From Raillietiella orientalis (Eukaryota): a stretch of DNA of 45,506 nucleotides. This document shows positions 11,744-45,506 of the stretch, piece by piece. The stretch spans positions 124,001 to 169,506 of the forward strand of contig JAYWIR010000109.1 of NCBI GenBank assembly GCA_036172245.1, read 5' to 3'. A model generated the notes under the pieces. The model searched no databases. It was not told the origin of the DNA and was given only the letters and a program-made list of their open reading frames with translations. Both the position numbers and the translations under genes were made by a program. Within the stretch, counting starts at the first letter, position 1. Each line of letters begins with the position of its first letter.

Positions 11744-11762
11744 ACGGCGATCCAGAAGGAGC

Positions 11763-17933: not shown

Positions 17934-17992
17934 CGTTGCCAATTTAGTACTCAATGAAAAAGCTTCTTTTGCTACTGTGCAATTGAGGTTTT

Positions 17993-24900: not shown

Positions 24901-25489
24901 TCCTGTTCCTGCTGCTGGTGTCGAGCGTTTTGTTGATGACTGAGTAGTCGTTTCTTCCTAAAAATGTGTATGGCGTAGTATAGATTTGACTGAAATAGGT
25001 GCAGAGATTTTGGTCTCCGTACTTATTTGAAGACATTTTTGTGCTGGCACTGGTAGCAATTTTTGTCTTGTTTGTCCGCTTTAGAACTTGCTTCATCATA
25101 GGTGTCCATTTCACGATTGCAGCGTCATTAAACCTATTTTTGTTCCATTTGCTGCAGCGATGCCGGGGAATTCTGATTGAATCAGGATTCCTTGATGTAC
25201 GCACGGAGAATTTATCATCCTCATCAGTTGGGTTTCACACGCTGTTAGCGTGCATGATAAAAAGTAGAGGTTGGATGCCTCTTTTTTCGGGACATTGAAA
25301 GGTCGCTGCAGCATGGCAGCGAGCTCCACCGCTGCTCGCTCGTAAGCGAAGTCATCTCCGACGTACACCACCGCCTGGTTCGCCTGCGGTGCGTTGTCCA
25401 AGGGTGGCGTCCAGCGACAAGTTCAGCAGCGCTGCGCTGGTCGATCGTGGGAACGTGCTCCACAACAACGCTGCACGGGCGTGCCTTGC

Positions 25490-27206: not shown

Positions 27207-27656
27207 TTTTCACCCGAATTTCGCCGGGGCGTTTATTGAAAAATAAACTTTTACAAACACGTGCAGTGGCTGGACCAATGCTCCAGCCACGCACGAAGAA
27301 ACAGCCTGACGGGTATCCGGATCTCAGACCGGTACGGTCCACCACGGCAGCAGGGGGAAGGGGAAAAAACAAAACAAAAAAAAAGAAAAGAAGTGGGAGG
27401 GTACAGGAAGGGATCACTGTTGCTGCTGGGGCCGTTGCATCCTTTGCAGGATGCCGGCAAGCTCTTTCTGTATTCGAGGATCCCGGTGGGGCCATCTCGA
27501 CGTCCTCAGGAATTGGGCGGCGCCTAGGAAGGCACCCTTGTCGCGTGGTCCTCCCGTAGCGGTGCATCATGCGGCGAAGATCCCGCGAAGGCAGCACAAG
27601 GCTGCTATCGAGGCCGCTGGCCGAAGGGCGTCGGCAACGAAGAGGGCTTTTAGTTG
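27207..27656 (-). mobile_element. Tx1-like LINE copy A (ORF2 C-terminus and 3'UTR only)
   Basis: LFVADALRPAASIAALCCLRGI matches copy B LFVQDALRPAAALAALCCVRGI. T-rich tract and AATAAA terminal motif at 27207-27237. Confidence 0.85.
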
Positions 27657-30600
27657 CCACCCGGTCACGCCGGGGCGTTTATTAAAAATTCTCTATAATT
27701 GTGGTATATGGCCCCACTACGGCCAACACAACTGGACCTGCCGGGTTGCCGATACGCAGATCGGCGCGACTCACCTCGGCAGCGGAAGGGGGTGGGGGGA
27801 AAAACAAAAAGAAAAATAAAACATAAAAAACAAAAAGATTTTGGTGGGCGGGGAAGGAATCACGGTCCACTGCGAGGAGAATCCATCCTTTCCAGGATGC
27901 CCTCCAGGTCCGTCCGTATTCTTCCCAGATGGGGCCATCTGGTCGCAATCCGCAGGTAGCGGACTGCAAGTTCGACGGCATCCCTTTCGTGGCTCGGTCT
28001 TCCGACGTCACTCCAGCACGTCACAATCCCACGGACGCAGCAAAGTGCAGCCAGGGCAGCGGCTGGTCGCAGGGCATCCTGCACGAACAGAAGCCGAAAA
28101 ACGTCTCTGGGCTGGCTGCCCTCCTGGATGCGTAGGGAGGCACGAAGACGTTCCCACAGGGGCCGGAGGGCAGCACAATCAATAAGGAGGTGGGGGAGGG
28201 TTTCCCGCTCTCCGCACCTGATGCACTCGGGATTCACTCGACCCCTGGTCCAGTGGTGGCGGCGTGCGTTGCAGGGGAGGCCCCAATGCAACAACAGAAG
28301 TGCCGACTCCTGCCACTTCAGGGGGAGGATCCTCGATCCAATCAATACTGGGGGCCACTTCAGTTCATCCGTCTGGATGTCGAGCAGCTCGCCCCATCTC
28401 AGGAGTCCACGCGGAAGGACACTTCGGGTCGTGGCGTCAACCAGCTGCCCCGTGGTCCAGCCGCTCATTTGCTTCTCTTTGCCTGCGATACGGCAGGAGA
28501 CTTGCCACCTAGGCTTGCGGCTGCTGGAGAGCGCCCTCCTCAGGTAGGGCAACGCCGTAGCTAGGGGGGTTGTCTCCGCCCACATGCTTCTCGCGGGACA
28601 CTGGAGTATCTTCCGGAGAGTGCAGCGGGAATAGGCGCCGCGTCGCAGGCAGTTCCACATCTCTGAGTTCTGCTCTTTGATCTTCGCCCACGTGCCAGCG
28701 GTCTCCTCCAGCCATGCGGAGGAGTTGGCGGGGCTGCATTCCATCCAGCCGTTTTCCTTTGCCAGGGTTGCCATGCGTCCCAGGAGGAGTCCGCATCTCT
28801 TGATCTTCGAGCCGCGGCACAGAAGATGAGACGCGAGACCCTCCGTTCCGGATACACGGCTGGCAAGGAGTCGGGCCGGAACGCACCATGGGGTGCTCCA
28901 TAACTTCGCTGCGATGGCCAGGGTGCGCCATCGCAGCTGGATTTCTACTCTCTCCACCGTCAAGAGGCCCAGACCGCCATCCCGACGTGGAGCACACAAG
29001 TCCTTCAACTGGACTCGGGGCTCCCTCTTCCCCAAAGGGCAATCCTCAGGAGGTCCTTCGTCCTTTTTTTCATGTCTCTGGGGACGGGGCAAACAAAAAG
29101 CAGGGGGCGGAGGATGGGAGCCGCAAAGGAGTTCCACACCGCGGCCCGTTCCGGAAGCAGGAACTTGTCTTCCAAGAACGGGCCGATCGCCGTTTCCACT
29201 TTTTGGAGGCAGCCGGACCACGCATCCGAAGGGGAGTAATCCCCCAACGGCACACCGAGGTACTTCAAGCACCTCGCCGAGGTGATCCCCAAACGGACCC
29301 AGTCCTGCTGCCCAGCCCACGTCGCACCGACTGGCATCACGGACGACTTAGCCCTGTTCATCGTAAGTCCGGTTCCCCGATTCAGCAGGTCGAAGAACTT
29401 CTCGACCGCCGCAGCCGGGGTGGACATAGGGAGCAGCAGCAGAAGGACGTCCGCGTATGCTGAAACGGCCGGCGTACCGGCACATTCGTGCGGCAGGTGC
29501 GCCAGAGTTCCCCTGTACGCTCTCAGTACCAACTCGAAGGAGGTACTGAAGAGCAAGGGGCTCAGGCTGTCTCCCTGCCGTATCCCACGCCCCATCGTCA
29601 TGCCGTGCACGGTCTGCCCGCTGAAAGTATGAGAAATTAACGCGTCGCGCCAACTGGAGCGGAGATAGGCCAATAATGAGGCCGGGGAGCCCAAGCGTTC
29701 CAAAAGCTCCAGCAGGATATTCTGGTCGACGCTGTCGAGTGCTTTACGCAAGTCCACAGCGACCGCAAGTGCTCCCTCCCCCATCCGACCATCCGTCGCA
29801 TGACTGACGGACTCACCGGAATTCCCGGTGCGCATCAAGCCCCTTTCGTGTTGGAGCTCTAGCCAGGTGGAAGCGTGGAACAGGTTCGCCTCCATGCTTC
29901 GCCCCGGAACAGCATACGTCTGTTCCGGGCTGATGAAGGCGTTTGCAACCCGTACCAGGCTCTCAGCCCAAACCTTAGCTATCAACCTGGCATCCGCATT
30001 CTCTATTGTGACGGGACGCCAGTTCACGCTCCTCAGGTCTCCTCCCTTAGGGAGGAGCCGCACCTTTGCCGAGCGAAAGGAGGCGGTAACGCCACCTGTC
30101 TCGCGTATCAGCAAGATGAGTTGATGTACCAGGGGGGTAAGCTCAGCCGCGATAGTTTGATAAAACTCCGCATGCAGGCCGTCCTCCCCTGGAGCCTCGC
30201 GCATGTTGAGCTTTCCGATGGCCGTGGGGATCTCGTCCATCGTGAAAGGCTCGTCGAGGGACTTTCCTCCCGGATCGCTGGAGCGCCTTCCGGAAGCAGG
30301 AGTCGTGAGACATCCCGCTCGGGAGATCTTGCGTATAGGGAGGTGTAGAATCTCCGCAGCAGGCCGTGGATTTGGACGGGTGCCGAGTGCCCCTGGCCCT
30401 GATCATCCAGCAAGCTGGCCGATCCGAACTTCCAGGCTTGCCTCTCGGCTCCCGCTTTGTACTCCGGCAGCCCGCGGATGTCGGGGGTCCTGGCGTAACG
30501 TCTGGCGTGCAGGTAGGCTCGTTCTTTACGGATTCCGTTCCCAAATCCCGCAGGTAGGCGGTTGAAAGGGAACTGGTCGCAGAACTCCTGGTCCGACCGA

Positions 30601-30995
30601 TTGAAGCGGTCCCAGTCCTGGTGTGTCCGCAGCCTGAAGCTCCGTTTGAACGTGCTGTGATGTTCCGCCGCGTCCTGGAGCTTCAGCCCGTCCCCTGGGA
30701 GACGCAATGCTGACGAGGGGGGCCCTGACGGGCGGATGAACCTCGAGCAGGATAGGGCGATGGTCGGAGAGCTCGCACGGTAACTAGCCGCGCCTGCTCA
30801 CGCGAGGGCATAGGTGTTCGTTTAGGAACACGTGGTCGATGCTGTCCTGCACGCCTGGTTCACTGGCCAACAAATTACAGGTGTGCACCGCCGTGCACAC
30901 CTCGTTGATCAGGTCCCATTCGTGATTCGGCCCTCTGGCTTCAGGCGAACGTTAAAGTCGCCTGCAACCGAAGTGGAGTCCGAGTGCAAACCTAA
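27657..30995 (-). mobile_element. Tx1-like LINE copy B, 5'-truncated within the APE endonuclease; frameshifted ORF2
   Basis: AGDFN (~30960), IDHVF and LSDHR endonuclease motifs; APGEDGL, NWRPVT, GIRQGDSLSPLLF, YADV (mutated YADD) and KYLG RT motifs; CIRCGERETLPHLLIDC zinc motif; terminal motif at 27658-27683. Confidence 0.92.
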
Positions 30996-31182
30996 AGAGC
31001 GCGTATCCCGAGGTAGCCCTGGAGCGCGACGGGCTACAGCGCAAGTACGAGTCTGTTGGCGGAAGCGATTCCGGCCCCTGCTCGGAGCCCGAAGCGATGA
31101 TTTTCGGCTCGAAGGACTCAGCTGGGTGCGATGCGACGGTGATCGATAGCTAGTCCGCTTCCCAATCCGCAGTGCTGCCAGT

Positions 31183-31425
31183 TTACTGCTCGCCGGACGC
31201 GTTTGTACATATTTCCCTTAGCTGATTCAAACTAGAGTGGACACCCTCGGATATGTTCTCCATATGTTCGTCTGTTGGTTTGTATTGGGTGATTAGAGCA
31301 TCTAGATTGGCCTTATGCTTTGGGGTCGTTATCCATCCCTTATAGTCGTTTATACTGTTAAAGGCTGGTCCCCATATAATCTCAGATATTCCTTTCCTAC
31401 AGGTGGCACAGTTTTGTACAGTTTT
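31183..31425 (-). other. Non-LINE insert carrying an 80-codon open frame (C-terminal fragment of an unknown protein)
   Basis: Manual translation KTVQNCATCRKGISEIIWGPAFNSINDYKGWITTPKHKANLDALITQYKPTDEHMENISEGVHSSLNQLREICTNASGEQ*. More AT-rich than the flanking LINEs and absent from other copies. Confidence 0.45.
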
Positions 31426-34020
31426 TCACCCGGGTGAGGCAGGGCTTTTATTATTAAAACTTTTTACAAGAAAAAATTCCATACTAAAGTCCTTTTTCTT
31501 TTCACTGTTTTGAATGTTTTTTTCAGCAGTAACACGTTCCGCTGTCTTGGGGCACTTGTCATTACCGACCCGTAGACCGATAAGGTCTTCCACATTGGCG
31601 CAGGGGCGGGAAAAAAAAGAAAAAAAAAAAAAAGAAAAACGCCTTGGGGGGGGGGGCAGTTTTATGGGAGGGGGGCAAGGGTGGGGATAACGGTACGCCG
31701 TGAGGAGGCCTCTGCACCCTGCTTCGGATGCGAACAAGTGCCGGTAAATGTTATCGAAGTCGGCGCCAACGGCATGGCTTCTCCAAAGAGATGGCTACCC
31801 AGTGAATGGCATTCCGACTGGTCCGGCCTCTCCGTGACTCGGTCCACTTGTCCAGGATTCCGCGTATGCAACAGAGCACTGCTACACACCCGGAGGCTAG
31901 CAAGGTGTCCCGCATCAGGAGTCGAAAAATGTTCTTGGGTACGCCCTCCGGAATGTTGAGGATCGACGAGTGTCGGTCCCACATATCGCGGAGGGCAACA
32001 CACTTTGGAATCAAGTGGGGGAAGGTCTGCCTTTCCCCTCACTCTGTGCAGTTGGCATCCACATTCTCCGATGTCCAGTGAGACAGGCGTGCTCTGCTTA
32101 AAAGTCCCCAATGGAACAGAAGCAACGCCGTCTCCTGCCACTGCAGGGGAAGGGTGCCGTTGTCCCAAGACGCTGGGGGCCACTTCACCTCCTCCGGAGC
32201 TACGTTGAGCAGCGCGCCCCAGCGTACAAGTCCACTCGGCGAGACAGTCGGGGTACTAGCGTCCGCTAGTTCCCGGGATGTCCACGCCTTCATCCGTTTT
32301 TTCCTGCCTCCGATGAGGCAGGACACTTCCCACGATGCCTCCTGTTGACTGTTCCTGGCTTCTATGAGGGAGGGCAGCACGGGGGCAAGGGGGGTGAAGG
32401 AAGCCCACAGAAGTTCCCGTGGGTTGGAAACGATCTCCTGCAGTGGCTGGCCAGCGCACGTGCCTCGACGGAGGCAGAAGTCCACATCGCTGGAACCGTT
32501 GACTTTTGCCCACGGGGAAACGGACTCCTGTAGCCAGGTAGTCCAGTCCGCGGGGTTGCAGGAGATCCACGGATTCTCCCTCTCCAGGGCAACCAGATCG
32601 GTAAATGGTTAAGACTAAGGTCGTTGGCTACCAGGATTGGGGTCAATCCGTAGCAGCCGGTTGCCCTGTGGGCGAGGAGTCTTGCGGGAGCACACTAAGG
32701 TGCTGGCCAATTCTTTGCCACAAGGGCAAGTTTTCGAAATTGCAGCTGTCGCACCATGTGCTCCAACGTGAGGAGACCAAGTCCACCGTCCCTGCTTAGA
32801 GCGCACAAGTCTTTAAGCCGGACGCGGAACCTCCCCTTTCCCCAAAGGGCGATGCGCAGGAGGTCCTTTGTGTTTTTTTCTATTCCCATGGGGATGGGGC
32901 AAACAAAAAGTAGGAGGCGAAGGATGGGAGCCGCAAACGCGTTCCATACCGCGGCCCGTTCCGGCAAGAGGAACTTGCCCTCCAGGAACGGGACGATCAC
33001 CAACTGCACTTTCTGGAGACGGCCTGACCAGGCTTCTGACGGGCAGAAGTTTCCCAGCGGAACGCCAAGGTACTTCAGATATGCGCCCGTCGGGATCCCC
33101 AGGCGGATCCAGTCAGGCCGTCCTTCCCACGTCGCTCCAACTGCCACCATCGACGATTTTGCCCTTTTGACTCGTAGCCCTGTCCCACGGCTTAGCAGGT
33201 CGAAGAAATATTCGACTGCCGTTGCCGGGGCGGACATTGGGAGCAGGAGCAGCAGATCGTCGGTATATGCGGACACGGCAGGCGTGCCGGGGCACGAGCT
33301 TGGCAAGGCAGCCAAAGTCATCCTGTAAGCTCTCAGCACCAACTCGAAGTAAGTACTGAAGAGCAAAGGACTGAGGCTATCTCCCTGTCGAATCCCGTGG
33401 CGCACCGGGAGGCCGTACACGTGTTGTCCTCTGAAAAAGATGTTCGTCAGCACGGCGCGCCAGCAGGAGCACAAGTACGCCGTTAAGGTCGATGGGAAGT
33501 CCATGCGATGCAGAAGCTCCAGAAGCTCCTGGTCCACGCAGTCGAACGCTTTATGGAGATCGACTGCGATCGCTAGGGCACTATTGCCCGCCCGGCTGTC
33601 CCCACCCTGACCAGCGGTCACCCTTAAATTGGGGTTGCAGGGATCCCTTACGTTCTTTAACTTCGCCTTGCACATAAAACCATGTGCTGGCGAAGAACAG
33701 GTTAGCCTCCATACTTCGCCCGGGAACAGCATAAGTCTGCTCCTGGCTAATTACGGATTCGGCTACCTGTCCGAGCCGCGCGGCCCACAGTTTCGCTACC
33801 AACTTGAGTCCGTGTTCACGACCGTGACCCGACGCCACTTCAACTCACTCCTTCCTAAGGAAGGTCTCCTCCCTTAGGAAGGAGCCTCATCCTTGCTGAC
33901 CGGAACGAGGCGGGAACATCGCCTTCTTCCCGGATCAAATGTATCAACCTATGCATCAAGGGGGTGATCTCTGCCGCGAAGCATTGAAAAAACTCCGCGG
34001 GCATCCCTTCCCAGGCTTCC
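31422..34020 (-). mobile_element. Tx1-like LINE copy C (RT through 3' end), degenerate
   Basis: GMPAEFF, LLPKGGDL, AVDLHKAFD, GIRQGDSLSPLLF, AYTDDL and KYLG motifs; C-terminal CTE*GERQTFPHL; terminal motif at 31422-31452. Confidence 0.92.
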
Positions 34021-34087
34021 AAATGACAAGTGTTTTTACTTTTTCTTTTTTTTTTTCTTTTTGTTTTTCCCCCAACCCTATCCGTTG

Positions 34088-35059
34088 ATCGTTGTCCATG
34101 GTCCAAGGACATAGCCTGGAAGCATCGTAATTGGAGATATCACGTACATTCCATCTATCTTGCGACATCTTGTCATAGTTTGGCTCCCAGTTGGAAAATA
34201 CAAGGATGTGGGGCGGGTCAAAATACTTGATGCTTCCTCGGTATTTGGAAGCGAAAATGATACCATTTTTCAAGGTTTCTATAAATCCATACTGGACTAT
34301 TTCCTGGTTATCTCTTGTAAGATCAATGACAATGATTCGTTCACCGTTGTATATGTGGGCTGCATCAGCTTTTTTGCAGCTGTGCATGTATATGCCGTTC
34401 CTTTTAAGGTAAAGAAACTTGGCGAAGGTGGTTTTGCCGTTTACTCCTATTGGGTCGAAATACCAGTATATTTTTCGGTCGTCTGGTGGTGAGCGTATCA
34501 ATTTTAGTATGTCCATTTGCCAGCTGCGTAATTGCAAGTTGGCCATGGGGTTAGGATGTTTTCTGCTTCGTGTTAAACGGAAGCATTCTTTTACGAAGTT
34601 AATGTTCTTGCTATAGAATTTAGTGTGGTTTCTCAATATGTCGAGTTCTGATGCTCCGTTTTCAATTAGTTGGAGTATCTAGGTTGAAATAAAGAGATTG
34701 GTCATTTGAAGTTTGCTTACCATGTCTTGGTAGTCGTTTGTTTCTTTTTCTTGTTGTATCATGCCAAATGTCCAGGCTTCGTGGTCCTCTTTTGTGCAGA
34801 ACCGTAGGTTGCTCTGTGGCGAACCGCGTGCTTTTTCTAGGTGGCACTTCTGGAAGGTTGTGTGCTTTAAAGCAGGAAATGTGCGTGGTTCCTTGAGTTG
34901 CACATATCCCTGAAGGTGCGGTGTTCCAGTGCTTGCTTTCTCTTTGCCAATGATTGCGAAGGTGCAATTTCTTCTGCACCAGTCCTTTATTTGTTGAAGT
35001 TCTTCATCGAGGTAGTTGCACAACGTGAAGCACCAGTATAAGAAGTGGCCGTATGGCAT
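34088..35059 (-). CDS. rep: Endogenous CRESS-DNA virus Rep (HUH endonuclease plus SF3 helicase), with putative 42-nt intron at 34679-34720
   Basis: Motif I CFTLCNY, motif II PHLQG, motif III FCTKE (Tyr replaced by Phe), Walker A GVNGKTT, Walker B IVIDLTR, motif C VFSN, Arg finger SQDRW. The two listed ORFs are in the same frame, separated by one TAG. Confidence 0.95.
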
Positions 35060-35116
35060 GTTGGTGATTGGTAATTCTGTCGAGGTGAGACTGGTTTATG
35101 CCTCATGCTGTGGTGG

Positions 35117-35124
35117 TTTATATA
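35117..35124 (-). promoter_or_regulatory. Putative TATA box for rep
   Basis: TATATAAA on the minus strand about 60 nt upstream of the rep ATG (35059), between the origin and the gene. Confidence 0.55.
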
Positions 35125-35141
35125 CTGGCAAACTGCGCAGT

Positions 35142-35177
35142 ATTTGCAATCTGGTTAGTATTACCCAGATTGCAAAT
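35142..35177 (+). promoter_or_regulatory. Rolling-circle replication origin stem-loop with nonanucleotide TAGTATTAC
   Basis: ATTTGCAATCTGG-tTAGTATTAC-CCAGATTGCAAAT: perfect 13-bp stem, nonamer at 35156-35164 on the strand opposite the rep coding strand. Confidence 0.95.
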
Positions 35178-35375
35178 GTCTTCGTCGGCAAAACCTTGGA
35201 AATTCTGTCGAGGTGAGACTGGTTTATGCCTCATGCTGTGGTGGTGTGGGGTGTCAAGTCGGTCTGCGCACCGACCACCTGACAGTTCCATAGAATTATT
35301 GGCTGCAGCAGGTCCTTGTACCGCAAACACTGTAAGTTTCTTTTAAATAAACGCCCCGGCTTGAACGGTTGAAAA

Positions 35376-37623
35376 CGTACGAGGAAAGCGACACCGCACG
35401 TACGTGCGACGCCGCACCTATAATGTAGCGTTCCGCCCGCGCGCCGTTCGATTTCGGCAGCCTGCTCGTCGGAGATGCTGTGAATCTCCTGCAGAAGCGT
35501 CAAGTCTAAGGCGCGCAGAGCGTTAGCCACTAGTCGCCTCTTCTCGTCGAGCTGGAGCCCTTTGACGTTCCAGCACCCTTTGACGTTGCCACACGACGAG
35601 AAGACGCGATTGCCCTCATCACGGCTGGGAAAGCGAGGCCGTGGTGGTCGTCTAAGCCGGCGAGCGGGCAGTAACCAGTACGACGGGCTGGAGGGCGCGG
35701 TCGCCACTGGCCTGCACCGTGCTGGCGTAATCGAGTGCTCCTCCCCGGGTGCAAAACCTGTGGGTTCCGGGGTGAGCACTCGCCGTTCCGCGGCGAGTGT
35801 GTCACGCCTCAGGGCTTCAGCCCTGCGGGCGTTCGCTCCGGCGCGAGTAACTCGTCGTTCAGCGGCGTTATCGGACTCCTTTACGGAGTCTGATGCTCGC
35901 GCGATCGACGTGCGTTTGCATCCGTCCGATCGCACCGGAATCGTCTTCTCGGCGGTCACAGAGGCGTACTTGCAATTGTTGACGGCGCTGGCTTTTTCCT
36001 GGGCAGAAGAACCCTCCGCGCGTGTTCGTATTCTCGTGACTGGTTTTTGCTTTGGAAGAGCTCAGGGATGAAGGCTGCGAAGTTTTTTTTGGAGATTTTT
36101 CTTTCCTCCTCTCCACAAACTTCCATTCGCCTTCACGATTTTCGGAGGCTTCCGCGTCAGAAGTTACGGAAACCTCCGGGATTTTCGCTGCGGTATCTGG
36201 AGGCGTTGCTTTCGCTACGCCTTTAAAAGGCGCCAACGGAGTCACCTTGGCAGTCGAGAGATTGCTCCCCTCCTGCCGAGTCGGCGATGGGGCGACGGCA
36301 TGCAGCGTGCTCTTCCGCTGCTTTTTACGCTTTCGTAGCCATCGCAGAGGGCCCTGCGTTGCATTGGGCCTCTGGGAAACTCGGAAGAGACATCGGAATG
36401 GCACAGGAAGTGCTCGTACTGTTGCGATCTTCCTGCTTTCCTACTTTGTGTCCAGGGGTTTTGGGATATTTCCTGGTTGCTGGCTCGGAAAGGTCCCGGC
36501 GAGTTCGGCAGCCAGGGCGGGCTCGGCACGCTTCGAGCCCTCGCATCCCTTTTTAATTTCCTTCCCCGCCGTGATTTCTCCCTTTCGAGGCGTTGCGGGC
36601 GGGGACGCCTGTTGTTTAGCCGCGTATTACTTGGCTCTTTTGCCAAGACTCCGCAGACACTGTTGTTTCTTGGGGGCAGCGGCCTTTCTTGCGTTGGTCT
36701 CTTGAACGCGACGAACTTACGCTGCTGCCCTTTTTTTTGCAAGTACCGGGCACTTTTTTATTTCGTGCCCGGTTTCTTTGCAGTAGCGGCATTTCGGGGT
36801 GGGACATTCCTTCATTCGGTGTCCCTCCTTGCCGCACTGCTCGCATGCGCGAGTGTGGCCTATGAACCACAGGTGAACGACCGTGCCGTTCACCTGCAGC
36901 TGCTCAGGCTCAACACGCCTGTTCGCGACGGTGATCTGCACGGAGACTTGTCCGATGTGGACAGAGGGGAAATCCTTTAGAGGATTTGGTCTCCTCCACA
37001 GAGCGTGCACGGTGGCGAACTTCGCTAGCACGCTGACGACATCGCTGTCGGAGATTTCCGGCTCGATGTCGCACAATTGAACAACAAAAGAGGCGTCCAT
37101 CACGGAGGGCAGGACTTCCTTGCCACCGATGGTCAGCGGACTACGGAGAAGGCGCTGCACAAATGCCGCGTTCTTGCACCGTATCTTCGTGTATTCCATC
37201 CTGCCTGCAGGCATGATGGCAAGTTCCTTCGAACGCCGATCCGGACGAGCTCATCGTTGAGCTCATGCGCGGTCCTCCCGTTAAGGGGACAACTGACCTT
37301 ATAACGGAGTGCGGGAATGTAGCCGGATGCCACATAGGCCTGCGACTCCGCATCGCAGGGTCCTGCTCCCTGGGAGGTGACGGCGGCGTAGCTCCTCACC
37401 GAAGGCGAGGAAACCGTCACGGAGGATGCGGCCGCTTCCATTCCAATTGAATTGGATTCAACGGCTTGCTCCTCCACACCATTCTCAGAACTGGACATGC
37501 TGCACAACGCTGCTTGGTTGACTTGGCAGAAACACACAAGTGCGAGCGAAAACGCAGGCACAAATATGCTCAATCGCGGACGGGGTGAGAAGGGAAAACA
37601 CGTCTGTACTGTGGGAGCGCAGA
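35376..37623 (-). mobile_element. Tx1-like LINE 5' portion: 5'UTR, frameshifted ORF1 (ATG 37498) and start of the ORF2 endonuclease (ATG 35619)
   Basis: ORF1 has RSYAAV and two CCHC knuckles (CEQCGKEGHRMKEC, CRYCKETGHEIKKC). ORF2 begins with APE motifs WNVKGL, LLQEIH and GVAFL, then breaks at 35376. Confidence 0.9.
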
Positions 37624-39757
37624 TTTCTCACCCGGTCACGCAGGGGCGTTTATTTCATATAACATAAACAAAAACAATTATATAAAATAATCCAGTTGGG
37701 AACCCTGCTCCCAACCGACGACTGAACAAGGATCAAGAGTAGATTGCTGGCACTGAGGCCAGAATAACACAGAACGGTGTGGGGAACTGGGAACACAAAC
37801 AAACAAATACAAAAGAAAAAGAAATCAATGGGGACGCCATGACAAGGGACTTTGGGATTGCTCTGGTTCGCACTGGGATAAAAGTAATCCCACCGGCAGT
37901 TTAGCAGAGCGAGCGGGGAAGAGGTATGGGTGGGCTACAGTTCAGAGTGATCACCGGATTACGCCGTTCTTGAAAGTCTGTAAACCGGCGATGGATGCCG
38001 GTGATGTCCTCTTTGACCTCTTCACGAAGATGAGGCCACATAGCAGCCTTTTCCATGGATTCTGCTGCAAACCGGTGAGCCTCCCTTCGCTGCGCCGACA
38101 ACTCAAGGGCGTAGCGGGCCTTCACGATGTAGCGAATGCAGCACATGGTTGCGACAATCGCGCCTACCGAAAGTCCATTCCTGCTGAAGAATCGTCGCAG
38201 CACATCAATGGCAGTGCCACCCTGCGGCAGGATGGCTGAAATCAACCTTCGCCACAGTTCACGGAGGTCACCAGCAAGAGGTGCGTAAAAGACTCGATCT
38301 CTCCGCACCTCAAACAGTTTGGCAGAGCAGCTCCCCCGGAAACGATGCTTCGTTGCCTATTACAGTGGAAGCCCCAGTGTAAAAAGAGTAGCACATCTTG
38401 TTTCCACTTTAAGGGGAACACTGAGCTGTCCAAACAAACGGGGGGAACCACCAGCTCTTCGGGGGTTACACTTAAATGTTCACTCCATCGAAGCAGGCCC
38501 TTCGCCCGATTACGAGGAGTGGCAGTTTCCACCAGCTCCTTTGTCGTCCAGCCGCCGAGGAGCATACAGACTCCCGCTATTGTGCAGAACTCCCATTTCG
38601 CCGGTAGGCAACTGTCGTCGCTTGCCCTGAGGGCAGACAGCGCTGCGGCGAGTGGTGTGGCGGCCAGACGATCCGTCTTCTTGTCCTGCATGACTTCGTC
38701 CATTGGATGACTGAGGAGAAGTCGCAGGCGTCGAAGATCTTCCGGGCGCGTTCCTTCGGAAGCTGCCCACGATGAAAAAAATTCCTGCCGCCATGCATTA
38801 ATGTTCATGGGCGGCAGGAGATCCAACATTGGGCTTCCAGCAGTGAGGACAGCTGCCTCAGCGGGAAGCCAAACCCCATTCTGGTGTGCGGAAAGTGGGG
38901 CAGCAACGAAAGCAGTCCCTCGCTTCCTGTGCAGCGCCTTAGTATAAGGCGTGTGGGTAAGCACCACGGCGTACACCACAGCCTGGCACAGAGCCGCAGC
39001 ATTCGAAACTGCACCTGCAGCTCGACGCTGTTTAAGTCGAGGATGCCCGAGCCTGCATCCTGACGCGGCGCCACTAAGTCTTTAAGTCTTTCGCGAGATC
39101 TTGCAGCGCCCCACAACGTTTTGCGTAGGGGGCGCTGCGCCCAGACTTTGAATTCCTGGTGGGGTGGCCAAACAGAAAACAGGGGGCGGAGGAGGGGGGC
39201 AACGAAGGTGTTCCAGATGATGGCCGGTTCCGGCAAGACGAATTCGCCTCCTGAGAACGGGCCAAGTGCACGCTCTGCCTTCCGAAGACAGCCCGACCAC
39301 GCTTCTGAGATGCAGAAGTCTCCCAACGGCACGCCAAGGTACCTCAGGTACCTGTTCGTGGGGATCCCCAGGCGGATCCTGTCGGACTGCCCCTCCGACA
39401 TCGCTCCCACCGCAACAACCATGCACTTGCTCCTGTTGACGCTCACGCCCGCACCGCGGCGGATCAACTCAAAGAAATTTTCAAGCGACGCCGCCGGGGT
39501 GGACATGGACAATAGGAGAAGCAGGTCGTCGGCATGGGCTGCCAAGGCCGGCGTACCTGGACAGGAGCTCGGCAGGTTGGCTAGCGTCAGCCTGTAAGCC
39601 TCCAGCACCAATTCGAAATAGCTGCTAAAGAGCGGCGGGCTTAAGCTATTGTCCTGCCTAATTCCTCGCCGTACCGGCACGCCGTATACGCGACAGCCAC
39701 AAAACAATGGATGTAATCGCGTGGCGCCAGTAGGAGCGCAAGTACGGCAACAGGGAT
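37624..39757 (-). mobile_element. Tx1-like LINE copy D (divergent subfamily; RT C-terminal half through 3' end)
   Basis: GIRQDNSLSPPLF, AHADDL, RYLG and CLRCGEIESFTHLLL motifs; terminal motif at 37624-37654. Confidence 0.9.
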
Positions 39758-39779
39758 GCCGTACTTGCGCTTGCCGTAC

Positions 39780-40745
39780 GAGGGTATTACACATTTTAGT
39801 GCATTATTCATTGGGAATTTTACATGGAGGTAATTATCTTGTGGGTAGAGAGAGGAAGACTAGTCATAGGAGGTGTACCATTGCGGGGGAGAGCTTTTTC
39901 TGTAGCAGACAACGGATTCTGTTTTGTTGAATTAATCATATGCAGGGGGTTACAAGTTATTAGGGGAGTTATTCTAGGGAGATTGACGGTGTTTGCGGGA
40001 AGCTGGACTTGGCCTGGGGCAGAAATCATTTGGGATGGGGAAACTGAGCTTGAACGAGAACGAAAACTGGAAATCTTCGCATTATGCAAGGGGATCTCTG
40101 AAGATGATCTTTTGGGATATAATGGTATTCCAGCAGGAGAGGTGTTTTTCAGGAAAACACATTCCCTTGTTGCAAGCTCTGCAAACGAGGAAGTGTTTTC
40201 GAAAGGATAAATTATGGCAGGAAAGAAAATGGTGTTTCAATTTTTCAATAGGATTCTCCTGAATGCTCGTATTAGTTAAGAATGAGCAAGTCGGGATTAA
40301 GCATTTAAAGCTAGAAGCAATGGGAAATTTAACCAGCAATAACTGATTTGTAGTTAATGCGAGGTCATCATTGCATATGGGTCGCAACTTTACAAAACTT
40401 AGAGGGGGTGTGGTCGATTGTGGACGAAGTGGTGAGGACGAATGAGACTTCGGAGCATGAAATGCAGATTTTGAGTAAGCATCACAAGATCGCAGGGAAC
40501 ATTGCCACAAATTTTGCTAATTGGGCTGGAAAACCTGACCTGTTTGACAGAACTAATTAAAGGTTTAGAACTAATTAAAGTAACATGCAAATCTTTGGAA
40601 TTTGGTACAAGTGAAGAATTGTCAGAGAGACCAGAGGGCGAACAAGATTGCAATATGTTCTCAGGAATGATTGCAGGAGGCGAATCCATAGGCGGATTAA
40701 TAGCAATGTCCGACATAGGCATAGGTGAGGAATCCCAACACATCC
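39780..40745 (-). mobile_element. AT-rich fragment resembling the N-terminal zinc-finger region of a NeSL/Utopia-type (RLE) retrotransposon
   Basis: LLVKFPIASSFKCLIPTC...LKHHFLSCH...CRACNKGMCFPEKHLSC gives FP-Cx4C...Hx4H...Cx2C...HxxC, flanked by Ser/Pro-rich sequence. Contains a frameshift and stops. Confidence 0.55.
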
Positions 40746-42768
40746 GTTAGCTCCCGAGTCGTACACGTCTTTAAAGGTTTTCTCCTGCCTCGCATGAGGC
40801 AGGACACTTCCCACGATGCCCGCTCGTTGCTGCTCCTAATGTTTTTCAGGGAGGACAGAACGGGGGCAAGGGGGGTGATAGAAGCCCACAGAAACTTCCG
40901 GGGCGTGTTGACAATCTCCTGCAGCGGCTGTCGAGCGTACGGTCCTCGACGTAGGCAGTTGTATTCCGGCTCGCTCGTGCCGTTGATCTTAGCCCACGCG
41001 GAGACTGACTCCTAAAGCCAGGCAGTGCAGTTCGCGGGGAGGCAGGAGATCCAGGTATTCTCTCTCATCAGGGCGACCATCTGGCGCAGATGGAAGCCCC
41101 AGGTGGTACTGAGGCTGCGCTGGTAGGTCACGAGGATCGAGGACAATCCTTCGCAGCCGGTCGCTTTTCTGGCGAGGACCCGTGCCGGATCGCACCATGG
41201 CGTCATCCATAAGCTAGCCGCGAGGGCTAGCTTTCGAAATGAAATTTGGTGTTGCATGCGCTCCATCGCAAGGAGGCCCAAACCACCGTCCCTGCGTGGA
41301 GCGCACAAGTCTTTCAATCGGACTCGCGACCTCGCTGTGCCCCAAAGGGCAGTCCTCTAGAGGGCTTTGGTCCATCTCTGTATGATGGGAGGGGCGGGGC
41401 AAACAAAAAGTAAGGGGCGAAGGAGGGAGGCCGCAAACGCGCTCCACGCCGCGGCCCGTTCATGCAGGAAGAACCTGCCGTCCTGGAACGGGCCGATCGC
41501 CGCCTGAGCCTTCTGAAGGCAGCCGGACCACGCTTCCGCAGATGAGTAATCCCCCAACGGCACACCAAGGTACTTGAACTACCTCACCGTGGGGATCCCC
41601 AAACGGACCCAGTCCTGCTGCCCTGCCCAAGCCGCTCCGACTGGCATTACGGACGACTTCGCCCTGTTCACCGTCAGTCCTGTTCCCCGACTCAGCAGGT
41701 CGAAGAAGTCCTCGACCGCCGAGGCCGGGGTGGACATAGGCAGCAGCAGCAGAAGGTCGTCCGCGTACGCCGAAACCGCTGGCGTACCGGGACAATCGCA
41801 CGGCAGGTGCGCCAGAGTCTCCCTGTACGCTCTCAGCACCAATTAGAAATGGGCGCTGAAGAGCAAGGGGCTGAGACTGTCTCCCTGCCGTATGCCGCGT
41901 CGCACCGGTACGCCGTACACGGTGGATCCACTGAAAAAGACATTAATAAGCGATTCGCGCCAGCTGGAGCGCAGGTAGGCCAGCAAAGAGGCCGGGAAGC
42001 CCAAGCGTTCCAGAAGCTATAAAAGGAGATTCTGGTCGACGCAATCGAACGCTTTACGCAGATCGACTGCGACCGCAAGGGCACCGGGCGCGGCTCTTCC
42101 ATGAAGGGCGTCCCCTCCCTGGTCAGAGGAGAATCCAGGATTCTCTTGACCTCCCTGGTCTTCGCTTTGTTGCAACTGCCACCATGTACTGGCGAGGAAC
42201 AGGTTGGCCTCCATGCTTCGTCCGGGAACAGCGTATGTCTGCTCCGGACTCACCACGGATTCCGCCACCCGTCCCAGTCGCTCAGCCCAAAGCTTGGCAA
42301 GCAACTTCGCATCCGCATTCACTACTCTGATGGGACGCCAGTTGCCTACGTTGCGATTGTCTCCTCCTTTCGGCAGGAGACGTATTCTAGCTGACCGGAA
42401 CGATTTGGGGACGTCCCCTTGTTCTCGGATCAGCATGCAAAGCCCATGCACCAGGGGGGCCAGCTCCGCCACGAAGCCTTGGTAGAACTCCGCGGGCAGA
42501 CCGTCTTCCCCTGGTACTTTCCTCTTTCTGAGCTTTCCGATGGCGGAGACGATCTCCGTCATCGAGAAAGGTTCCTCGAGTTGATGTGTCTGCTCCTCCT
42601 GTAGCGCGGGGGCGCCTTGCGGCAGCAAGCGCTGCGCCACGGCGCGCTCTGTTGTTCTACGCGCGTACAAGAAGGAGGAATAGTCAGGCAGGATGCGGTT
42701 TCTTTTCGCCGGAGCTGAGCATTCCTGGCCTTGGGCATCCAGCAAGCTGGCCGACCCGGATTGCCAGG
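40746..42768 (-). mobile_element. Tx1-like LINE internal ORF2 fragment (copy D2; lacks both ends)
   Basis: VPGEDGLPAEFY, NWRPI, AVDLRKAFDCVD and AYADDL motifs. Breaks off after WEVSCLM and has no terminal motif. Confidence 0.9.
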
Positions 42769-45230
42769 TTTTTCACCCGGGTAAGCCGGGGCTTTTATTA
42801 TTAAAATTTTTTGAGATTACAAAAAATTCCATAACAGAGTCTGAATTTTTTCACCAAAAATCTCATTTTCTGTTCAGGATGTCTAGAAGTTCATAAACGT
42901 TTAGTGGCACTTGTCCTTACCGACCCGGAGGCCGATAAGGTCCTTCACTGGCGCCGGGACGGGAAAAATAAAAGAAAACAAAAACAAAAAAAAGAAAAAC
43001 GTCTGGAGGGCAATGTTTTTGGGGAGGGAGGGAGGGGATCACGGTGCGCCGTGAGCAGGCCTTTGCATCCGGTTTCGGATGCGAACAAGTGCCGGCAAAT
43101 GTTTTTGAAGTCGGCGCCAACGGCACGCTTTCTCCAAGGAGATCGCTGCCCAGTGGATGGCATTCCGGCTGCTCCTTCCTCTCCTAGACGCGGTCCACTT
43201 CTCCAGGATACCGCGTATGCAGCAGAGCACTGATACGCTCCCGGAGGCTGGCAAGCCGTCTTGCGTCAGGAGGCGTCTGAATAAATTTTTCGGGTCACCC
43301 CCCGGAATGTTGAGGATCGACGAGAGTCTGTCCCACATTTCGCGGAGGGCAACACACTCCAGAATCAAGTGGGGGAAGGTCTCCCTTTCCCCGCACTCTG
43401 CACAACTAGCATCCACATTCTCCGATGTCCAGTGAGACAGGCGTGCTCTGCTTAAAAGTCCCCAATGGAACAGAAGCAACGCCGTCTCCTGCCACTGCAG
43501 GGGAAGGGTGCCGTTGTCCCAAGACGCTGGGGGCCACTTCATCTCCTCCGGAGCTACGTTGAGCAGCGCGCCCCAGCGTACAAGTCCACTCGGCGGGACA
43601 CTCGGGGTACTAGCGTCCGCTAGTTCCCTCGGCGTCCACGCCTTCATCCGTTTTTTCCTGCCTCCGATGAGGCAGGACACTTCCCACGATGCCTGTTGGT
43701 GGCTGTCCCGAACTTCCCTGAGGGAGGGCAGCACTGGGGCAAGGGGGGTGAAGGAAGCCCACAGAAGTTTCCGTGGGTTGGAAACGATCTCCTGGAGTGG
43801 CTGACCAGCGTGCCTCCCTCTGCGGAGGCAGGAGAAGTCCTCCTCGCTGGTGCCATTGATCTTCGCCCATGCGGAAACAGACTCCTGAAGCCAGGTAGTC
43901 CAGTCCGCTGGGATGCAGGAGATCCAAGGGTTGTCTCTCATCAGGGCAACCAAGTCCCGCAGCTGATAACCACAATGGTTCAGGCTGCGTTCGTTGGCTA
44001 CCAGGATTGAAGTCAATCCGAAGCAGCCGGTTGCCCTGTGAGCGGGCCGATCGCCAGCTCCACTTTTTGTAGATGGTCGGACCAGGCTTCTGCAGAGCAG
44101 AAGTCCCCCAACGGAACGCCAAGGTGCTTGACGTACCTGCCCGTGGGGATCTCCAAGCGGATCCAGTCCGACCGTCCGGCCCTCGTCGAGTCGGTGAGAA
44201 GCAACGACGACTTCGTCCTGTTTACCTGGAGGCCTGTCCCACGGTATAGCAACTCGAAGAAATCCTCGAGCGCCGATGCCGGGGTGGACCCGGGAAGCAG
44301 GAGCAGAAGATCGTCTGCATAGGCCGACACGGCAGGCGTGCCGGGACACGAGCTCGGCAGAGTTGCCAAAGTCTCCCTGTATGCTCTCAGCACCAACTCA
44401 AAGTAGATGCTGAAGAGCAGGGGGCTGAGACTGTCACCCTGCCGGATGCCACGACGAACCGGCACGCCGAACACGTGCCGGCCGCTGAAATTAATATTGA
44501 TGAACGCGAAGCGCCAGCAGGAGCGTAGGTAGGCCAGGAAGACGGCCGGAAATCCCAAGCGTTCGAGGAGCTCCAGAAGGAGCTCCTGGTCGCCGCAGTC
44601 GAAAGCTTTACGCAAATCGACTGCGACCGCAAGGGCTCCAGGCGCCGCTTCTTCTTCCCGGGTTCCCTCCCCCCTGTCAATGGAGAGTCCAGGACTTTCC
44701 CGACGTAGCTGCGCCTCGCGTTGTTGCAACTGCCAGAAGGTGCTGGCGAGGAACAGGTTGGCCTCCATGCTTCGTCCGGCATACGTAGTTTTAGCACCAG
44801 GGGGCCAGCTCTGCCGCGAAGCCTTGGTAGAACTCCGCGGGCAGACCGTCTTCCCCTGGTGCTTTCCTCTTTCTGAGCTTTCCGATGGCGGAGACGATCT
44901 CCGCCATCGAGAAAGGCTCCTCGAGTTGATGTGTCTGCTGCTCCTTTAGCGCGGGCGCGCCTTGCGGCAGCAAGCGCTGCGCCACGGCGCGCTCTGTTGT
45001 TCTACGCGCGTACAAGGAGGAGTAATAATCCCGCAGGATGCGGTTTCTTTTCGCCGGAGCTGAGCATTCCTGGCCTTGGGCGTCCAGCAAGCTGGCCGAC
45101 CCGGATTGCCAGGTCTGTCGCTCAGCCCCAGCTTTATACTCCGCCAGGCGTCGAACGTCGGGAGTCCTAGAGTAAAGACGGGCGTGGTGGTATGCCCGGT
45201 CGTTCCTCAGCCTTTCGCGGAAACCTGGAC
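42769..45230 (-). mobile_element. Tx1-like LINE copy E (5'-truncated; internal deletions near 44040 and 44790)
   Basis: APGEDGLPAEFY, GIRQGDSLSPLLF, AYADDL and CAECGERETFPHLILEC motifs; terminal motif at 42769-42799. Confidence 0.92.
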
Positions 45231-45506
45231 GGGAGTCCACTGCGGAACTGGTCTTGCGGGATTGAGAGAGGCACGAATCATGCCTACTGATATTCCGATG
45301 GCTGGAATTTCTTCATATAGATTGTGATTATTGACATCTATGATGCCATATAGACCGGGGGTGCCGTCTACAACCTGAGTTGGTAGAGGCGGGAAGGATG
45401 GGTACAAATGTTGCCCATTCTTGGTTGTCGTCGCGCCTAATCCAGTTAGATATAGGCGGATGGGTTCGACAAGGTTGAAGGACTGAACTCCCGCCTGCTG
45501 AACAGT
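45231..45506 (-). other. Endogenous partiti-like (dsRNA) virus capsid fragment, running off the window edge
   Basis: Frame is open from the window end: TVQQAGVQSFNLVEPIRLYLTGLGATTTKNGQHLYPSFPPLPTQVVDGTPGLYGIIDVNNHNLYEEIPAIGIS. PIxLYLxxxG, GQHLYP and HNLYEEIP are recalled from arthropod partiti-like capsids. Confidence 0.7.

What the first reader, a model, noticed from the sequence alone, without database searches (positions are those of the whole stretch)
27207..45506. Tx1-like LINE array interleaved with captured virus and transposon fragments: candidate retrotransposon-built immune archive
Seen: seven minus-strand Tx1-like pieces from several subfamilies are packed over 18 kb with no recognisable host DNA between them. 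Four of the five minus-strand copies with a 3' terminus have a different foreign segment at their 5' break: unknown ORF (B), CRESS rep plus origin (C), zinc-finger fragment (D) and partiti-like capsid (E). All four code on the minus strand, including rep, whose carrier UTR is inverted. Known: LINE reverse transcriptases jump templates, and arthropod piRNA clusters collect antisense transposon and viral fragments. Inference: this family repeatedly inserts here and writes invader sequence into a repeat/cargo array, and a + strand transcript would yield antisense guides. Four of four co-oriented is only modest statistical support.
Basis: partly seen in the sequence, partly recalled or inferred. 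Interest (0 to 1): 0.9.

Follow-up and report, generated by a model that had tools for sequence, protein, structure and literature searches.

The report
LINE pile-up holding one viral fossil
An 18-kb pile of broken LINE retrotransposon copies holds one genuine fossil of a small circular DNA virus, lodged inside a LINE tail, but the proposed archive of several captured invaders is not borne out.

Summary
The region 27207-45506 is about 86% L1-superfamily LINE sequence. It holds seven minus-strand pieces, five of them with a conserved 3' terminus, plus one short plus-strand tail.

Of the four claimed foreign cargos, only one holds up.
- C is a real CRESS-DNA virus rep gene with an intact origin hairpin (nonamer TAGTATTAC).
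- D, the zinc finger, is most likely the ORF1 of a LINE 5' portion and not cargo.
- Most of B is the endonuclease domain of the adjacent LINE. Only about 230 bp stay unassigned.
- E, the 'partiti-like capsid', has no detectable homologue. Neither strand looks protein-like.

Rep does not sit at a 5' break. It lies antisense inside the 3'UTR of the plus-strand LINE tail, with both UTR halves kept and no poly(A).

Three of the five minus-strand 3' termini abut the 5' end of the next same-strand LINE piece, as in nested or tail-directed LINE clusters.

Counting LINE pieces over 25.2-45.5 kb, orientation is 7 minus to 2 plus (p about 0.18).

The small-RNA and genome-wide tests could not be run: no genome is held, and the one public run found is not recorded as RNA.

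Verdict: an ordinary LINE nest containing one virus fossil embedded in a LINE. The immune-archive reading is unsupported.

The parts
25250..27206 (+). L+: degraded 5' portion of a LINE on the plus strand, with an ORF1-like stretch at 25686-26324. It forms the left flank of the array and lies outside the finding's coordinates.
   Evidence: tblastn and tblastx against the P3 ORF1: 43-55% amino-acid identity, summed E 9e-29. The frame 25849-26324 holds 4 stop codons.
27207..27656 (-). P0: 450-bp 5'-truncated LINE tail with a 3' terminus. Its 5' break abuts the 3' terminus of P1.
   Evidence: Exact terminus motif; C-terminal residues 417-485 matched; sequence read.
27657..31190 (-). P1: LINE running from the second half of the endonuclease through RT to zf-RVT and the 3' terminus. 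It is frameshifted. Its 5' boundary is good to about +/-40 bp.
   Evidence: RVT_1 E 1.1e-15 and zf-RVT E 1.1e-3. GDFN, IDHVF and SDH pieces are collinear with the EN profile. Terminus.
31191..31421 (.). B: about 230 bp, unassigned, 43% GC, with an 80-aa open frame on the minus strand.
   Evidence: Pfam found nothing meaningful at E<=5. Its EN-profile score of 1.2 bits falls within the range of shuffles. No in-window similarity.
31422..34018 (-). P2: 5'-truncated LINE, from about RT residue 74 to the 3' terminus.
   Evidence: The 5' break was mapped by alignment A1.
34027..34088 (+). P+ left half: the T-rich plus CCCCCAACCC tract of a LINE 3'UTR, in plus orientation. Its 5' break lies within 10 nt of the P2 5' break, head to head.
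   Evidence: blastn to the reverse complement of the P1 UTR tract: 87% over 47 nt, E 6e-11. It also matches the P0, P2 and P6 tracts (alignment A3).
34089..35245 (-). CRESS-virus fragment. It comprises the rep ORF (35059 down to about 34105, with no stop codon of its own), a putative unspliced 42-nt GT..AG intron (34720-34679) that holds the only in-frame stop, a TATA-like box, the origin hairpin (35142-35177, nonamer at 35156-35164 on the plus strand), and 50-nt direct repeats (35068-35117 and 35196-35245). Boundaries are good to about +/-10 nt.
   Evidence: The repeat is 49 of 50 identical.
35246..35375 (+). P+ right half: the last 130 nt of a LINE 3'UTR with its 3' terminus, in plus orientation. 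Its insertion cuts the P3 endonuclease after the motif GVAFLV.
   Evidence: Exact terminus motif on the plus strand. It matches 4 of the 5 minus-strand termini in reverse orientation, E 1e-5 to 4e-4. Alignment A3; sequence.
35376..37623 (-). P3: LINE 5' portion. It is 3'-truncated by P+, and its 5' end abuts the P4 terminus.
   Evidence: zf-CCHC E 3.5e-7 and Exo_endo_phos E 1e-5. Translations. Contigs of run X1 cover 36760-37564 and 35741-36155 at about 88-90% identity.
37624..39757 (-). P4: divergent 5'-truncated LINE, from about RT residue 250 to the 3' terminus. About 30 nt of GC-rich filler (39758-39786) precede it.
   Evidence: The 5' break was mapped in alignment A4.
39787..40742 (.). 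E: about 950 bp, unassigned, 41.5% GC.
   Evidence: No homologue in any search. Its trinucleotide profile correlates 0.83 with the AT-rich block at 14.2-25.2 kb.
40743..42768 (-). P5: LINE piece truncated at both ends, with no 3' terminus. Its 5' break abuts the P6 terminus.
42769..45225 (-). P6: 5'-truncated LINE with a 3' terminus. Upstream of it, 45226-45506 is unassigned (50% GC) and runs off the window.

Best explanation
This is a local pile-up of L1-superfamily LINE copies, built by repeated insertion of new copies into or next to older ones.

New copies are usually 5'-truncated. Several landed at the short A-run that ends an older copy, or were joined to it by end-to-end template jumping. 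Either route gives head-to-tail, same-strand junctions with no spacer. That explains both the shared orientation and the scarcity of other DNA.

The stretches between LINE pieces that are not LINE (B, E, 45226-45506) are most simply leftovers of the DNA the LINEs inserted into, or unrecognisable old repeats. B and E are AT-rich.

Separately, a 1.16-kb piece of a small circular Rep-encoding ssDNA virus became joined into the 3'UTR of a plus-strand LINE tail. The piece carries rep, its promoter region and the replication origin, but no capsid gene. I think the join was made at the DNA level by end joining at short microhomologies.

Shown: the LINE map, the rep gene and origin, and their position inside the UTR.
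Inferred: the insertion mechanisms, the order of events, and that B and E are target remnants.

Whether the virus piece entered this very copy, or rode in with the LINE tail as a passenger, cannot be told from one locus.
For: LINE map
- Seven minus-strand pieces plus one plus-strand tail make about 15.7 of 18.3 kb.
- The RT's best solved relative is human LINE-1 ORF2p, E 1.5e-25, against 6.5e-12 for the best R2-type entry.
- Three of the five minus-strand 3' termini abut the 5' end of the next same-strand LINE piece with 0 bp between: P1|P0, P4|P3, P6|P5. Of all 6 termini, 5 are followed by LINE sequence.

Rep inside a LINE 3'UTR
- The left flank matches the UTR T/C tract of 4 other copies in reverse orientation; the best match is 87% over 47 nt, E 6e-11.
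- The right flank carries the exact terminus motif and matches 4 of 5 termini.
- With the virus piece removed, the distance from the C-tract to the terminus is about 136-152 nt. It is 131 nt in P1 and 146 nt in P0 (read).
- There is no poly(A) and no loss of UTR sequence. A shared string GCTGTGGTGG sits at the right junction.

The other cargos
- D lies in a contiguous 2.25-kb GC-rich unit that ends in an endonuclease N-terminus. It has a paralogue at 25.7-26.3 kb and is repeated in run X1.
- B and E have the base composition of the neighbouring AT-rich block: 0.43 and 0.415 against 0.40 GC, with LINEs at 0.56-0.60.
Against: - The 5' breaks of P2 and P+ lie head to head within about 10 nt. Independent insertions do not predict this. 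It hints at a single two-primer event.
- The 50-nt direct repeat around the origin is unexplained.
- B, E and 45226-45506 could still be foreign but unrecognisable. Only one E frame had the exhaustive search.
- No target-site duplications could be found to order the events. The only non-terminus match between junctions is a 9-mer, expected by chance about 1 time in 6 (my arithmetic).
- A 7-to-2 strand bias is in the direction that a one-strand small-RNA source locus would show.
- D's identity as a LINE ORF1 rests on position only. Searches with it found either no relatives or only generic CCHC knuckles.
Confidence: 0.65

Rival explanations
1. The LINE is the vehicle. In one version, the virus piece was copied in by the LINE reverse transcriptase, which switched from LINE RNA to the packaged viral ssDNA strand and back during insertion. 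In the other version, the virus integrated into the 3'UTR of an active LINE elsewhere, and a 5'-truncated copy carrying it was retrotransposed here. Sense LINE transcripts would then contain antisense rep.
For: - P+ has a proper 3' terminus and a 5' truncation about 60 nt beyond the insert. It looks like one retrotransposed unit.
- Microhomology sits at the right junction, and a second CCAA overlap sits at the end of the 50-nt repeat. Both fit copy-choice.
- The nonamer strand is the window's plus strand, so the packaged strand would have the polarity needed as template. Among 79 related viral contigs, this arrangement occurred in 23 and the opposite in 23; none was found in 33.
- There is a precedent. 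Circovirus rep fossils embedded in LINE-1 were amplified in carnivores (PMC6372831, passages read).
- P5 has a 322-bp stretch 95% identical to P6 inside a 76%-identical body. That fits template switching or gene conversion.
Against: - A polymerase returning to almost the same point of the first template, with no UTR loss, is not what template switching usually gives. A DNA-level insertion gives that naturally.
- Only one copy is visible.
- The single related run covers rep thinly: depth 0.9-3.8 against 8-34 on most LINE parts. That run is not the source organism.
- Dead LINE copies far outnumber active ones as integration targets (general knowledge).
Confidence: 0.17
2. The locus is a one-strand small-RNA source, of the piRNA-cluster type. 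Its plus-strand transcript yields antisense guides against the LINEs and the virus. Fragments are retained because they confer silencing.
For: - It is a dense nest of TE fragments, 7 of 9 LINE pieces on one strand, with a viral fragment on that same strand.
- This is the general look of the unidirectional EVE-bearing cluster described in Aedes (PMC7161354; search listing and start of abstract only).
- A Kringle exon and a 5S rRNA that I judge from memory to look metazoan suggest an animal-like host.
Against: - Nothing specific supports it. The orientation bias is not significant, and head-to-tail LINE joining explains it.
- Only one viral fragment is verified.
- No promoter, small-RNA or expression data could be obtained.
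- The host lineage, and whether it has a PIWI pathway, are unknown.
Confidence: 0.1
3. Part of the structure is an assembly artefact of a repeat-rich region. The suspect parts are the permuted or abutting LINE pieces and the head-to-head P2/P+ junction.
For: - The copies share 66-95% identity.
- P3 and P5 are 3'-truncated, which LINE insertion alone does not produce.
- No independent read set covers the locus.
Against: - Copies differ by 17% or more, apart from one 322-bp stretch. That is too much for collapse with long reads.
- Junctions fall exactly at natural LINE termini.
- Both halves of the UTR around rep fit together to the expected length.
Confidence: 0.06

Closest known systems
Zepp / Zepp-like L1 LINE clusters of green algae
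   Same: L1-type LINEs that insert into existing copies. They build local arrays made mostly of 5'-truncated 3' ends with little other DNA (PMC8226300, passages read). Here 3 of 5 minus-strand termini abut the next copy, and the region is about 86% LINE.
   Different: - The terminus here is a hairpin plus a short A-run, not a long poly(A).
- Several subfamilies take part, and two pieces lie on the other strand.
- The host looks animal-like, not algal.
- Whether clustering is genome-wide or centromeric cannot be tested.
- No phylogeny links this family to Zepp.
Endogenous circovirus rep elements embedded in LINE-1 in carnivores
   Same: A rep-derived fossil of a small circular ssDNA virus, physically fused with LINE sequence (PMC6372831, passages read).
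   Different: - Here the origin hairpin and promoter region are kept as well.
- The fragment lies antisense inside the 3'UTR.
- Only one copy is known, so amplification is not shown.
- Rep is only 32-40% identical to its best database relatives. These are unclassified environmental sequences, not known circoviruses.
Unidirectional piRNA clusters holding viral fragments (Aedes, flamenco-like)
   Same: A TE graveyard with a mostly shared orientation and a viral fragment. Sources seen as search listing and abstract starts only: PMC7161354, PMC5497376, 10.1101/127498.
   Different: - Those clusters are defined by small RNAs. None could be examined here.
- By my recollection, their viral fragments are mostly from RNA viruses and associate with LTR elements, not LINEs.
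- Only one viral fragment is present here.
L1 chimeric insertions by template switching, and twin priming
   Same: Head-to-tail LINE-LINE junctions with no spacer, and a head-to-head pair of 5' breaks (P2/P+). Both resemble products of RT template jumping or of priming from both nicked strands. This comparison is recalled knowledge; no paper was read for it.
   Different: - In classical twin priming the inverted part comes from the same RNA, upstream of the sense part. Here both parts carry their own 3' terminus.
- No target-site duplications could be identified.

Membership tests
   Exo_endo_phos E 1e-5 (25.8 bits, cut-off 24.5) at the P3 ORF2 start. GDFN, IDHVF and SDH pieces are collinear in P1.
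   PDB: LINE-1 ORF2p E 1.5e-25 against the best R2-type entry at 6.5e-12. The database relatives are L1-like ORF2s of plants and Mucor, at 26-32% identity.
   Two CCHC knuckles lie 1.1 kb upstream of the endonuclease start, on the same strand. No homologue ties them to LINE ORF1 proteins.
Tx1 clade specifically | Phylogenetic placement with Tx1 reference elements | not tested
   No reference Tx1 or Repbase sequences are available in the tools.
Tx1 clade specifically | Insertion into one specific target sequence | tested here: not met
   The six downstream flanks share no common sequence. Five of the six are LINE sequence, but at different positions.
CRESS-DNA virus Rep (Cressdnaviricota) | HUH endonuclease motifs I and II | tested here: met
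   CFTLCNY and HLQGY align with the invariant columns of 8 relatives. Viral_Rep E 4.7e-15.
CRESS-DNA virus Rep (Cressdnaviricota) | Motif III catalytic tyrosine (YxxK) | tested here: not met
   The window reads RFCTKE where all 8 relatives have Y. This copy would not nick DNA. That fits a fossil.
CRESS-DNA virus Rep (Cressdnaviricota) | Superfamily-3 helicase with Walker A and B and motif C | tested here: met
   GVNGKT, IVIDL and VFSN align with the relatives. Pfam RNA_helicase is only weak, E 2.1e-3.
CRESS-DNA virus genome | Origin hairpin with a conserved nonamer next to rep | tested here: met
   13-bp stem, loop TTAGTATTAC, -12.9 kcal/mol, z -6.19, lying 83 nt upstream of the rep ATG.
CRESS-DNA virus genome | Capsid gene | tested here: not met
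   Nothing capsid-like adjoins rep. tblastx of B, E and 45226-45506 against 79 related viral contigs gave a best E of 0.024.
   0 hits at E<=1e-3 for the 144-aa frame among 1.84 billion representatives. Pfam, PDB and IMG/VR gave nothing for the other frames. Very divergent capsids could still escape.
piRNA cluster | Strand-biased 24-31 nt small RNAs with 1U bias | not testable with these tools
   No run recorded as RNA was found. The one run is contigs, which cannot hold small RNAs.
Nested (Zepp-like) LINE cluster | New copies inserted into or onto existing copies, giving arrays of 5'-truncated 3' ends | tested here: met
   Five of the seven minus-strand pieces are 5'-truncated copies with a 3' terminus. 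Three termini abut the next copy.

The most novel reading that the evidence does not exclude
A LINE lineage in this organism carries an antisense rep-plus-origin cassette of a circular ssDNA virus in its 3'UTR and spreads it by retrotransposition. Every sense LINE transcript then supplies antisense viral RNA. In effect, the retrotransposon would act as the carrier of a heritable RNA-silencing trigger against a DNA virus. The capture could have occurred when the LINE reverse transcriptase copied the packaged viral ssDNA strand.
Probability: 0.08. Interest if true: 0.75.

Novelty: new member of a known kind. Interest (0 to 1): 0.3.

Why it matters
As it stands this is a useful negative. An attractive 'retrotransposon-written immune archive' reduces to an ordinary LINE nest plus one viral fossil.

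The fossil itself has some value.
- It keeps rep, a likely unspliced mini-intron, the promoter region and an intact origin hairpin. It therefore records a CRESS-virus lineage, at most 40% identical to anything in the databases, that once met this host. That is direct host evidence, which most CRESS viruses lack.
- Its position inside a LINE 3'UTR adds a second example, outside mammals, of the LINE-circovirus fusions seen in carnivores.

If further copies with the same junctions exist, it would show LINE-mediated spread of DNA-virus sequence.

Tried and rejected
READINGS I ABANDONED
- My first reading of the A-rich tract between rep and P2 was a poly(A) tail, implying an mRNA retrocopy or template-switch chimera. 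I rejected it. The tract, with its adjoining GGGTTGGGGG, is the reverse complement of the LINE 3'UTR T/C tract.
- P3 and P1 as two halves of one LINE split by an insertion. Rejected: both contain the same endonuclease motif region, with different sequence.
- B as an endonuclease fragment, or as the continuation of P3. By eye it looked possible, but the profile score of 1.2 bits lies within the shuffles (196 of 300 shuffles scored; the top was 2.0). The alignment was incoherent.
- Classical twin priming for P2/P+. The geometry does not fit, because both parts have their own 3' terminus.
- Rep-mediated integration at the nonamer. The origin is intact and the junctions lie elsewhere.

SEARCHES THAT FOUND NOTHING
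- E as the capsid gene of the same CRESS virus. tblastx against 79 related contigs gave a best E of 0.024.
- E in Pfam, the Atlas, the PDB, the exhaustive phmmer search and IMG/VR.
- ORF1 homologues: 0 of 34 candidates. The PDB gave only generic CCHC hits.
- Target-site duplications between 13 junctions. Only a 9-mer turned up, CGTACGAGG at P+|P3 and P4|E. About 0.17 such matches are expected by chance, by my estimate. The shuffled-position control is inflated by LINE paralogy.
- The exact origin hairpin in viral and metagenome contigs, and a degenerate LINE-terminus pattern in metagenome contigs: 0 matches each.
- Earlier findings of this scan: nothing.

WEAK OR UNUSABLE RESULTS
- A second rep fossil at 23759-23912. 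tblastn gave E(2) 2e-4, but neither the rep profile nor 48 relatives support it.
- No RNA holder is listed. The one run listed (X1, share of words 0.08) holds related LINE contigs at 85-95% identity but not this locus, so it validates no junction.
- No genome is held for the window.


Full report
WHAT IS THERE

I scanned all stop-to-stop frames of 80 residues or more in 27.0-45.5 kb against Pfam.
- The 69 minus-strand frames gave RVT_1 in five, zf-RVT in two, Exo_endo_phos in one, Viral_Rep plus a weak RNA_helicase, and zf-CCHC.
- Of the 68 plus-strand frames, none reached a curated cut-off.

tblastn with the frames of the longest copy, together with self-blastn, resolved seven minus-strand LINE pieces. 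They share 66-83% nucleotide identity, so several subfamilies are present.

Five pieces end in a conserved terminus, AATAAA[CA]GCCC...CGGGTG followed by a short A-run. The termini end at 27207, 27657, 31422, 37624 and 42769. One more terminus lies on the plus strand and ends at 35375.

The RT's best solved relative is human LINE-1 ORF2p (E 1.5e-25), ahead of the best R2-type entry (6.5e-12). The nearest database proteins are L1-like ORF2s of plants and a Mucor, at only 26-32% identity. 'L1 superfamily' is therefore supported. 'Tx1-like' could not be tested. The six downstream flanks share no specific target.

By my sums, LINE sequence makes about 15.7 of the 18.3 kb, the virus piece about 1.16 kb, and unassigned DNA about 1.46 kb.

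THE FOUR CARGOS

C is real.
- The frame from 35059 to about 34105 is a CRESS-virus Rep. 172 of 525 candidates scored E<=1e-5. The best was 6.8e-47 at 32% identity over 94% of the query. The best hits lie on contigs of about 1.5-2.3 kb, with a few shorter or longer ones further down the list.
- Aligned with 8 relatives, it keeps motifs I and II and the helicase motifs.
- It has F in place of the catalytic tyrosine of motif III.
- It has a private 14-residue insertion that contains the only stop. At the DNA level this insertion is a 42-nt GTAAGC...CCTAG stretch, so it is probably an unspliced mini-intron.
- 83 nt upstream of the ATG lies a 13-bp hairpin with TAGTATTAC in its loop, on the plus strand (z -6.19; 0 of 200 shuffles fold as well).
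- Among 79 related viral contigs, the nonamer hairpin was on the rep strand in 23, on the other strand in 23, and not found in 33. The arrangement is therefore a natural one.

It belongs to an open frame with a start codon. That frame sits in a contiguous 2.25-kb GC-rich unit running from the P4 terminus to an endonuclease N-terminus (CWNVKGL...GVAFLV). A 43-55% identical paralogue lies on the plus strand at 25.7-26.3 kb. Contigs of the one related run cover parts of the unit at about 88-90% identity. I read it as the ORF1 of a LINE 5' portion, not as cargo. This rests on position, because no homologues were found.

B is mostly LINE. The interval 30730-30970 carries the GDFN, IDHVF and SDH endonuclease motifs of P1, in the right order and spacing. 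That leaves about 230 bp unassigned.

E has no homologue anywhere I could look.
- Pfam found nothing on either strand.
- The exhaustive phmmer search of the 144-residue frame against 1.84 billion representatives gave 0 hits.
- The PDB, IMG/VR and related CRESS genomes gave nothing.
- The protein-language-model recognition scores of the best frame on each strand, 1758 and 1178, are below the level reached by 91% of real proteins.
- The plus strand is the purine-rich one, so even the claimed coding strand is doubtful.
- B and E are 43% and 41.5% GC, like the 40% GC block at 14.2-25.2 kb and unlike the LINEs at 56-60%.

WHERE REP REALLY SITS

I first took the A-rich tract between rep and P2 for a poly(A) tail. 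It is not one. Together with the adjoining G-run, it is the reverse complement of the T-rich plus C-rich tract that opens the 3'UTR of these LINEs. The match is 87% over 47 nt to P1 (E 6e-11), with matches to P0, P2 and P6 as well.

On the other side of the virus piece lies the rest of a plus-strand 3'UTR, with an exact terminus motif. It matches 4 of the 5 minus-strand termini in reverse orientation.

With the virus piece removed, the distance from the C-tract to the terminus is about 136-152 nt. It is 131 nt in P1 and 146 nt in P0. So rep plus origin lies antisense inside the 3'UTR of a short plus-strand LINE tail, and no UTR sequence is lost.

The right junction shares GCTGTGGTGG between virus and UTR. 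A DNA-level end-joining insertion explains the retained flanks most simply. Copying by the LINE RT onto the packaged viral strand, or arrival as a passenger of a retrotransposed LINE, remain possible. They are the more interesting readings.

Circovirus rep fossils fused to LINE-1 and amplified with it are already described in carnivores (PMC6372831, passages read).

HOW THE ARRAY AROSE

Three of the five minus-strand termini abut the 5' end of the next same-strand LINE piece with no spacer (P1|P0, P4|P3, P6|P5). Five of all six termini are followed by LINE sequence. This is what insertion into the tail of an older copy would give, and so would end-to-end template jumping. It is also how Zepp-type L1 clusters are thought to form (PMC8226300, passages read). 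It yields co-orientation without any selection.

Counting the two plus-strand pieces, orientation is 7 to 2 (two-sided binomial p about 0.18, my arithmetic), and three of the seven are not independent.

WHAT REMAINS UNEXPLAINED
- The 5' breaks of P2 and of the plus-strand tail lie head to head within about 10 nt.
- 50-nt direct repeats (49 of 50 identical) flank the origin.
- P3 and P5 are 3'-truncated.
- A 322-bp stretch is 95% identical between P5 and P6, which are otherwise 76% alike.
- No target-site duplications could be found.

WHAT COULD NOT BE TESTED

No genome is held. The only public run found shares 8% of the sampled words, is not recorded as RNA, and holds related LINE copies rather than this locus. 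Small RNAs, genome-wide enrichment, polymorphism and junction validation therefore all stay open. Exact-match scans for the origin hairpin and for a degenerate LINE-terminus pattern in the contig collections found nothing.

VERDICT

The immune-archive idea has no support from what could be tested.

Noticed in passing
window 11762-11878 (-): A full-length 5S rRNA gene (90 bits, E 3.6e-18). A 133-bp stretch beside it (11611-11743) recurs inverted at 17336-17479 at 75% identity.
   Followed up: no
window ~10290-10385 (+) and ~10817-10978 (+): A probable exon encoding the end of a Kringle domain ([19 protein letters not shown]; Pfam E 2.5e-7, just under the cut-off), and a weak choline-transporter-like stretch. 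They suggest an animal-like host with about 65% GC in its gene-bearing DNA.
   Followed up: partly
window 17787-18371 (-): A remnant of an IS630/Tc1-type transposase (HTH_Tnp_IS630, E 3.5e-11) inside the AT-rich block 14.2-25.2 kb.
   Followed up: no
window 23759-23912 (-): A possible second, badly decayed rep-helicase fragment (two collinear pieces with a frameshift and stops; tblastn E(2) 2e-4). Neither the rep profile nor 48 database relatives support it.
   Followed up: partly
window 42448-42769 vs 44794-45114: A 322-bp stretch is 95% identical between the neighbouring LINE pieces P5 and P6, whose remaining overlap is 76% identical. This could be gene conversion or a mosaic (template-switched) element.
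   Followed up: no
window 35068-35117 and 35196-35245: 50-nt direct repeats (49 of 50 identical) of the rep leader flank the origin hairpin. The outer copy starts exactly at the junction with the LINE UTR. Their origin is unknown: native to the virus, a defective rearranged genome, or a backward template jump.
   Followed up: partly
window 34679-34720 (-) and motif III at ~34800 (-): Rep carries a 42-nt GT..AG insertion absent from 8 relatives, likely an unspliced mini-intron. It also has Phe in place of the catalytic Tyr. Otherwise the 318-codon frame has no frameshift, so the fossil looks young.
   Followed up: partly
window 35376-35384 and 39775-39783: The same 9-mer (CGTACGAGG on the plus strand) lies at the P+|P3 junction and at the P4|E junction. 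About 0.17 such matches are expected by chance among 13 junctions, so it is probably coincidence.
   Followed up: yes
window ~16170-16211 (-): A degenerate match to the LINE 3' terminus motif (2 mismatches, followed by ..CCAGGTGAGAAA). It suggests an older LINE tail inside the AT-rich block.
   Followed up: no
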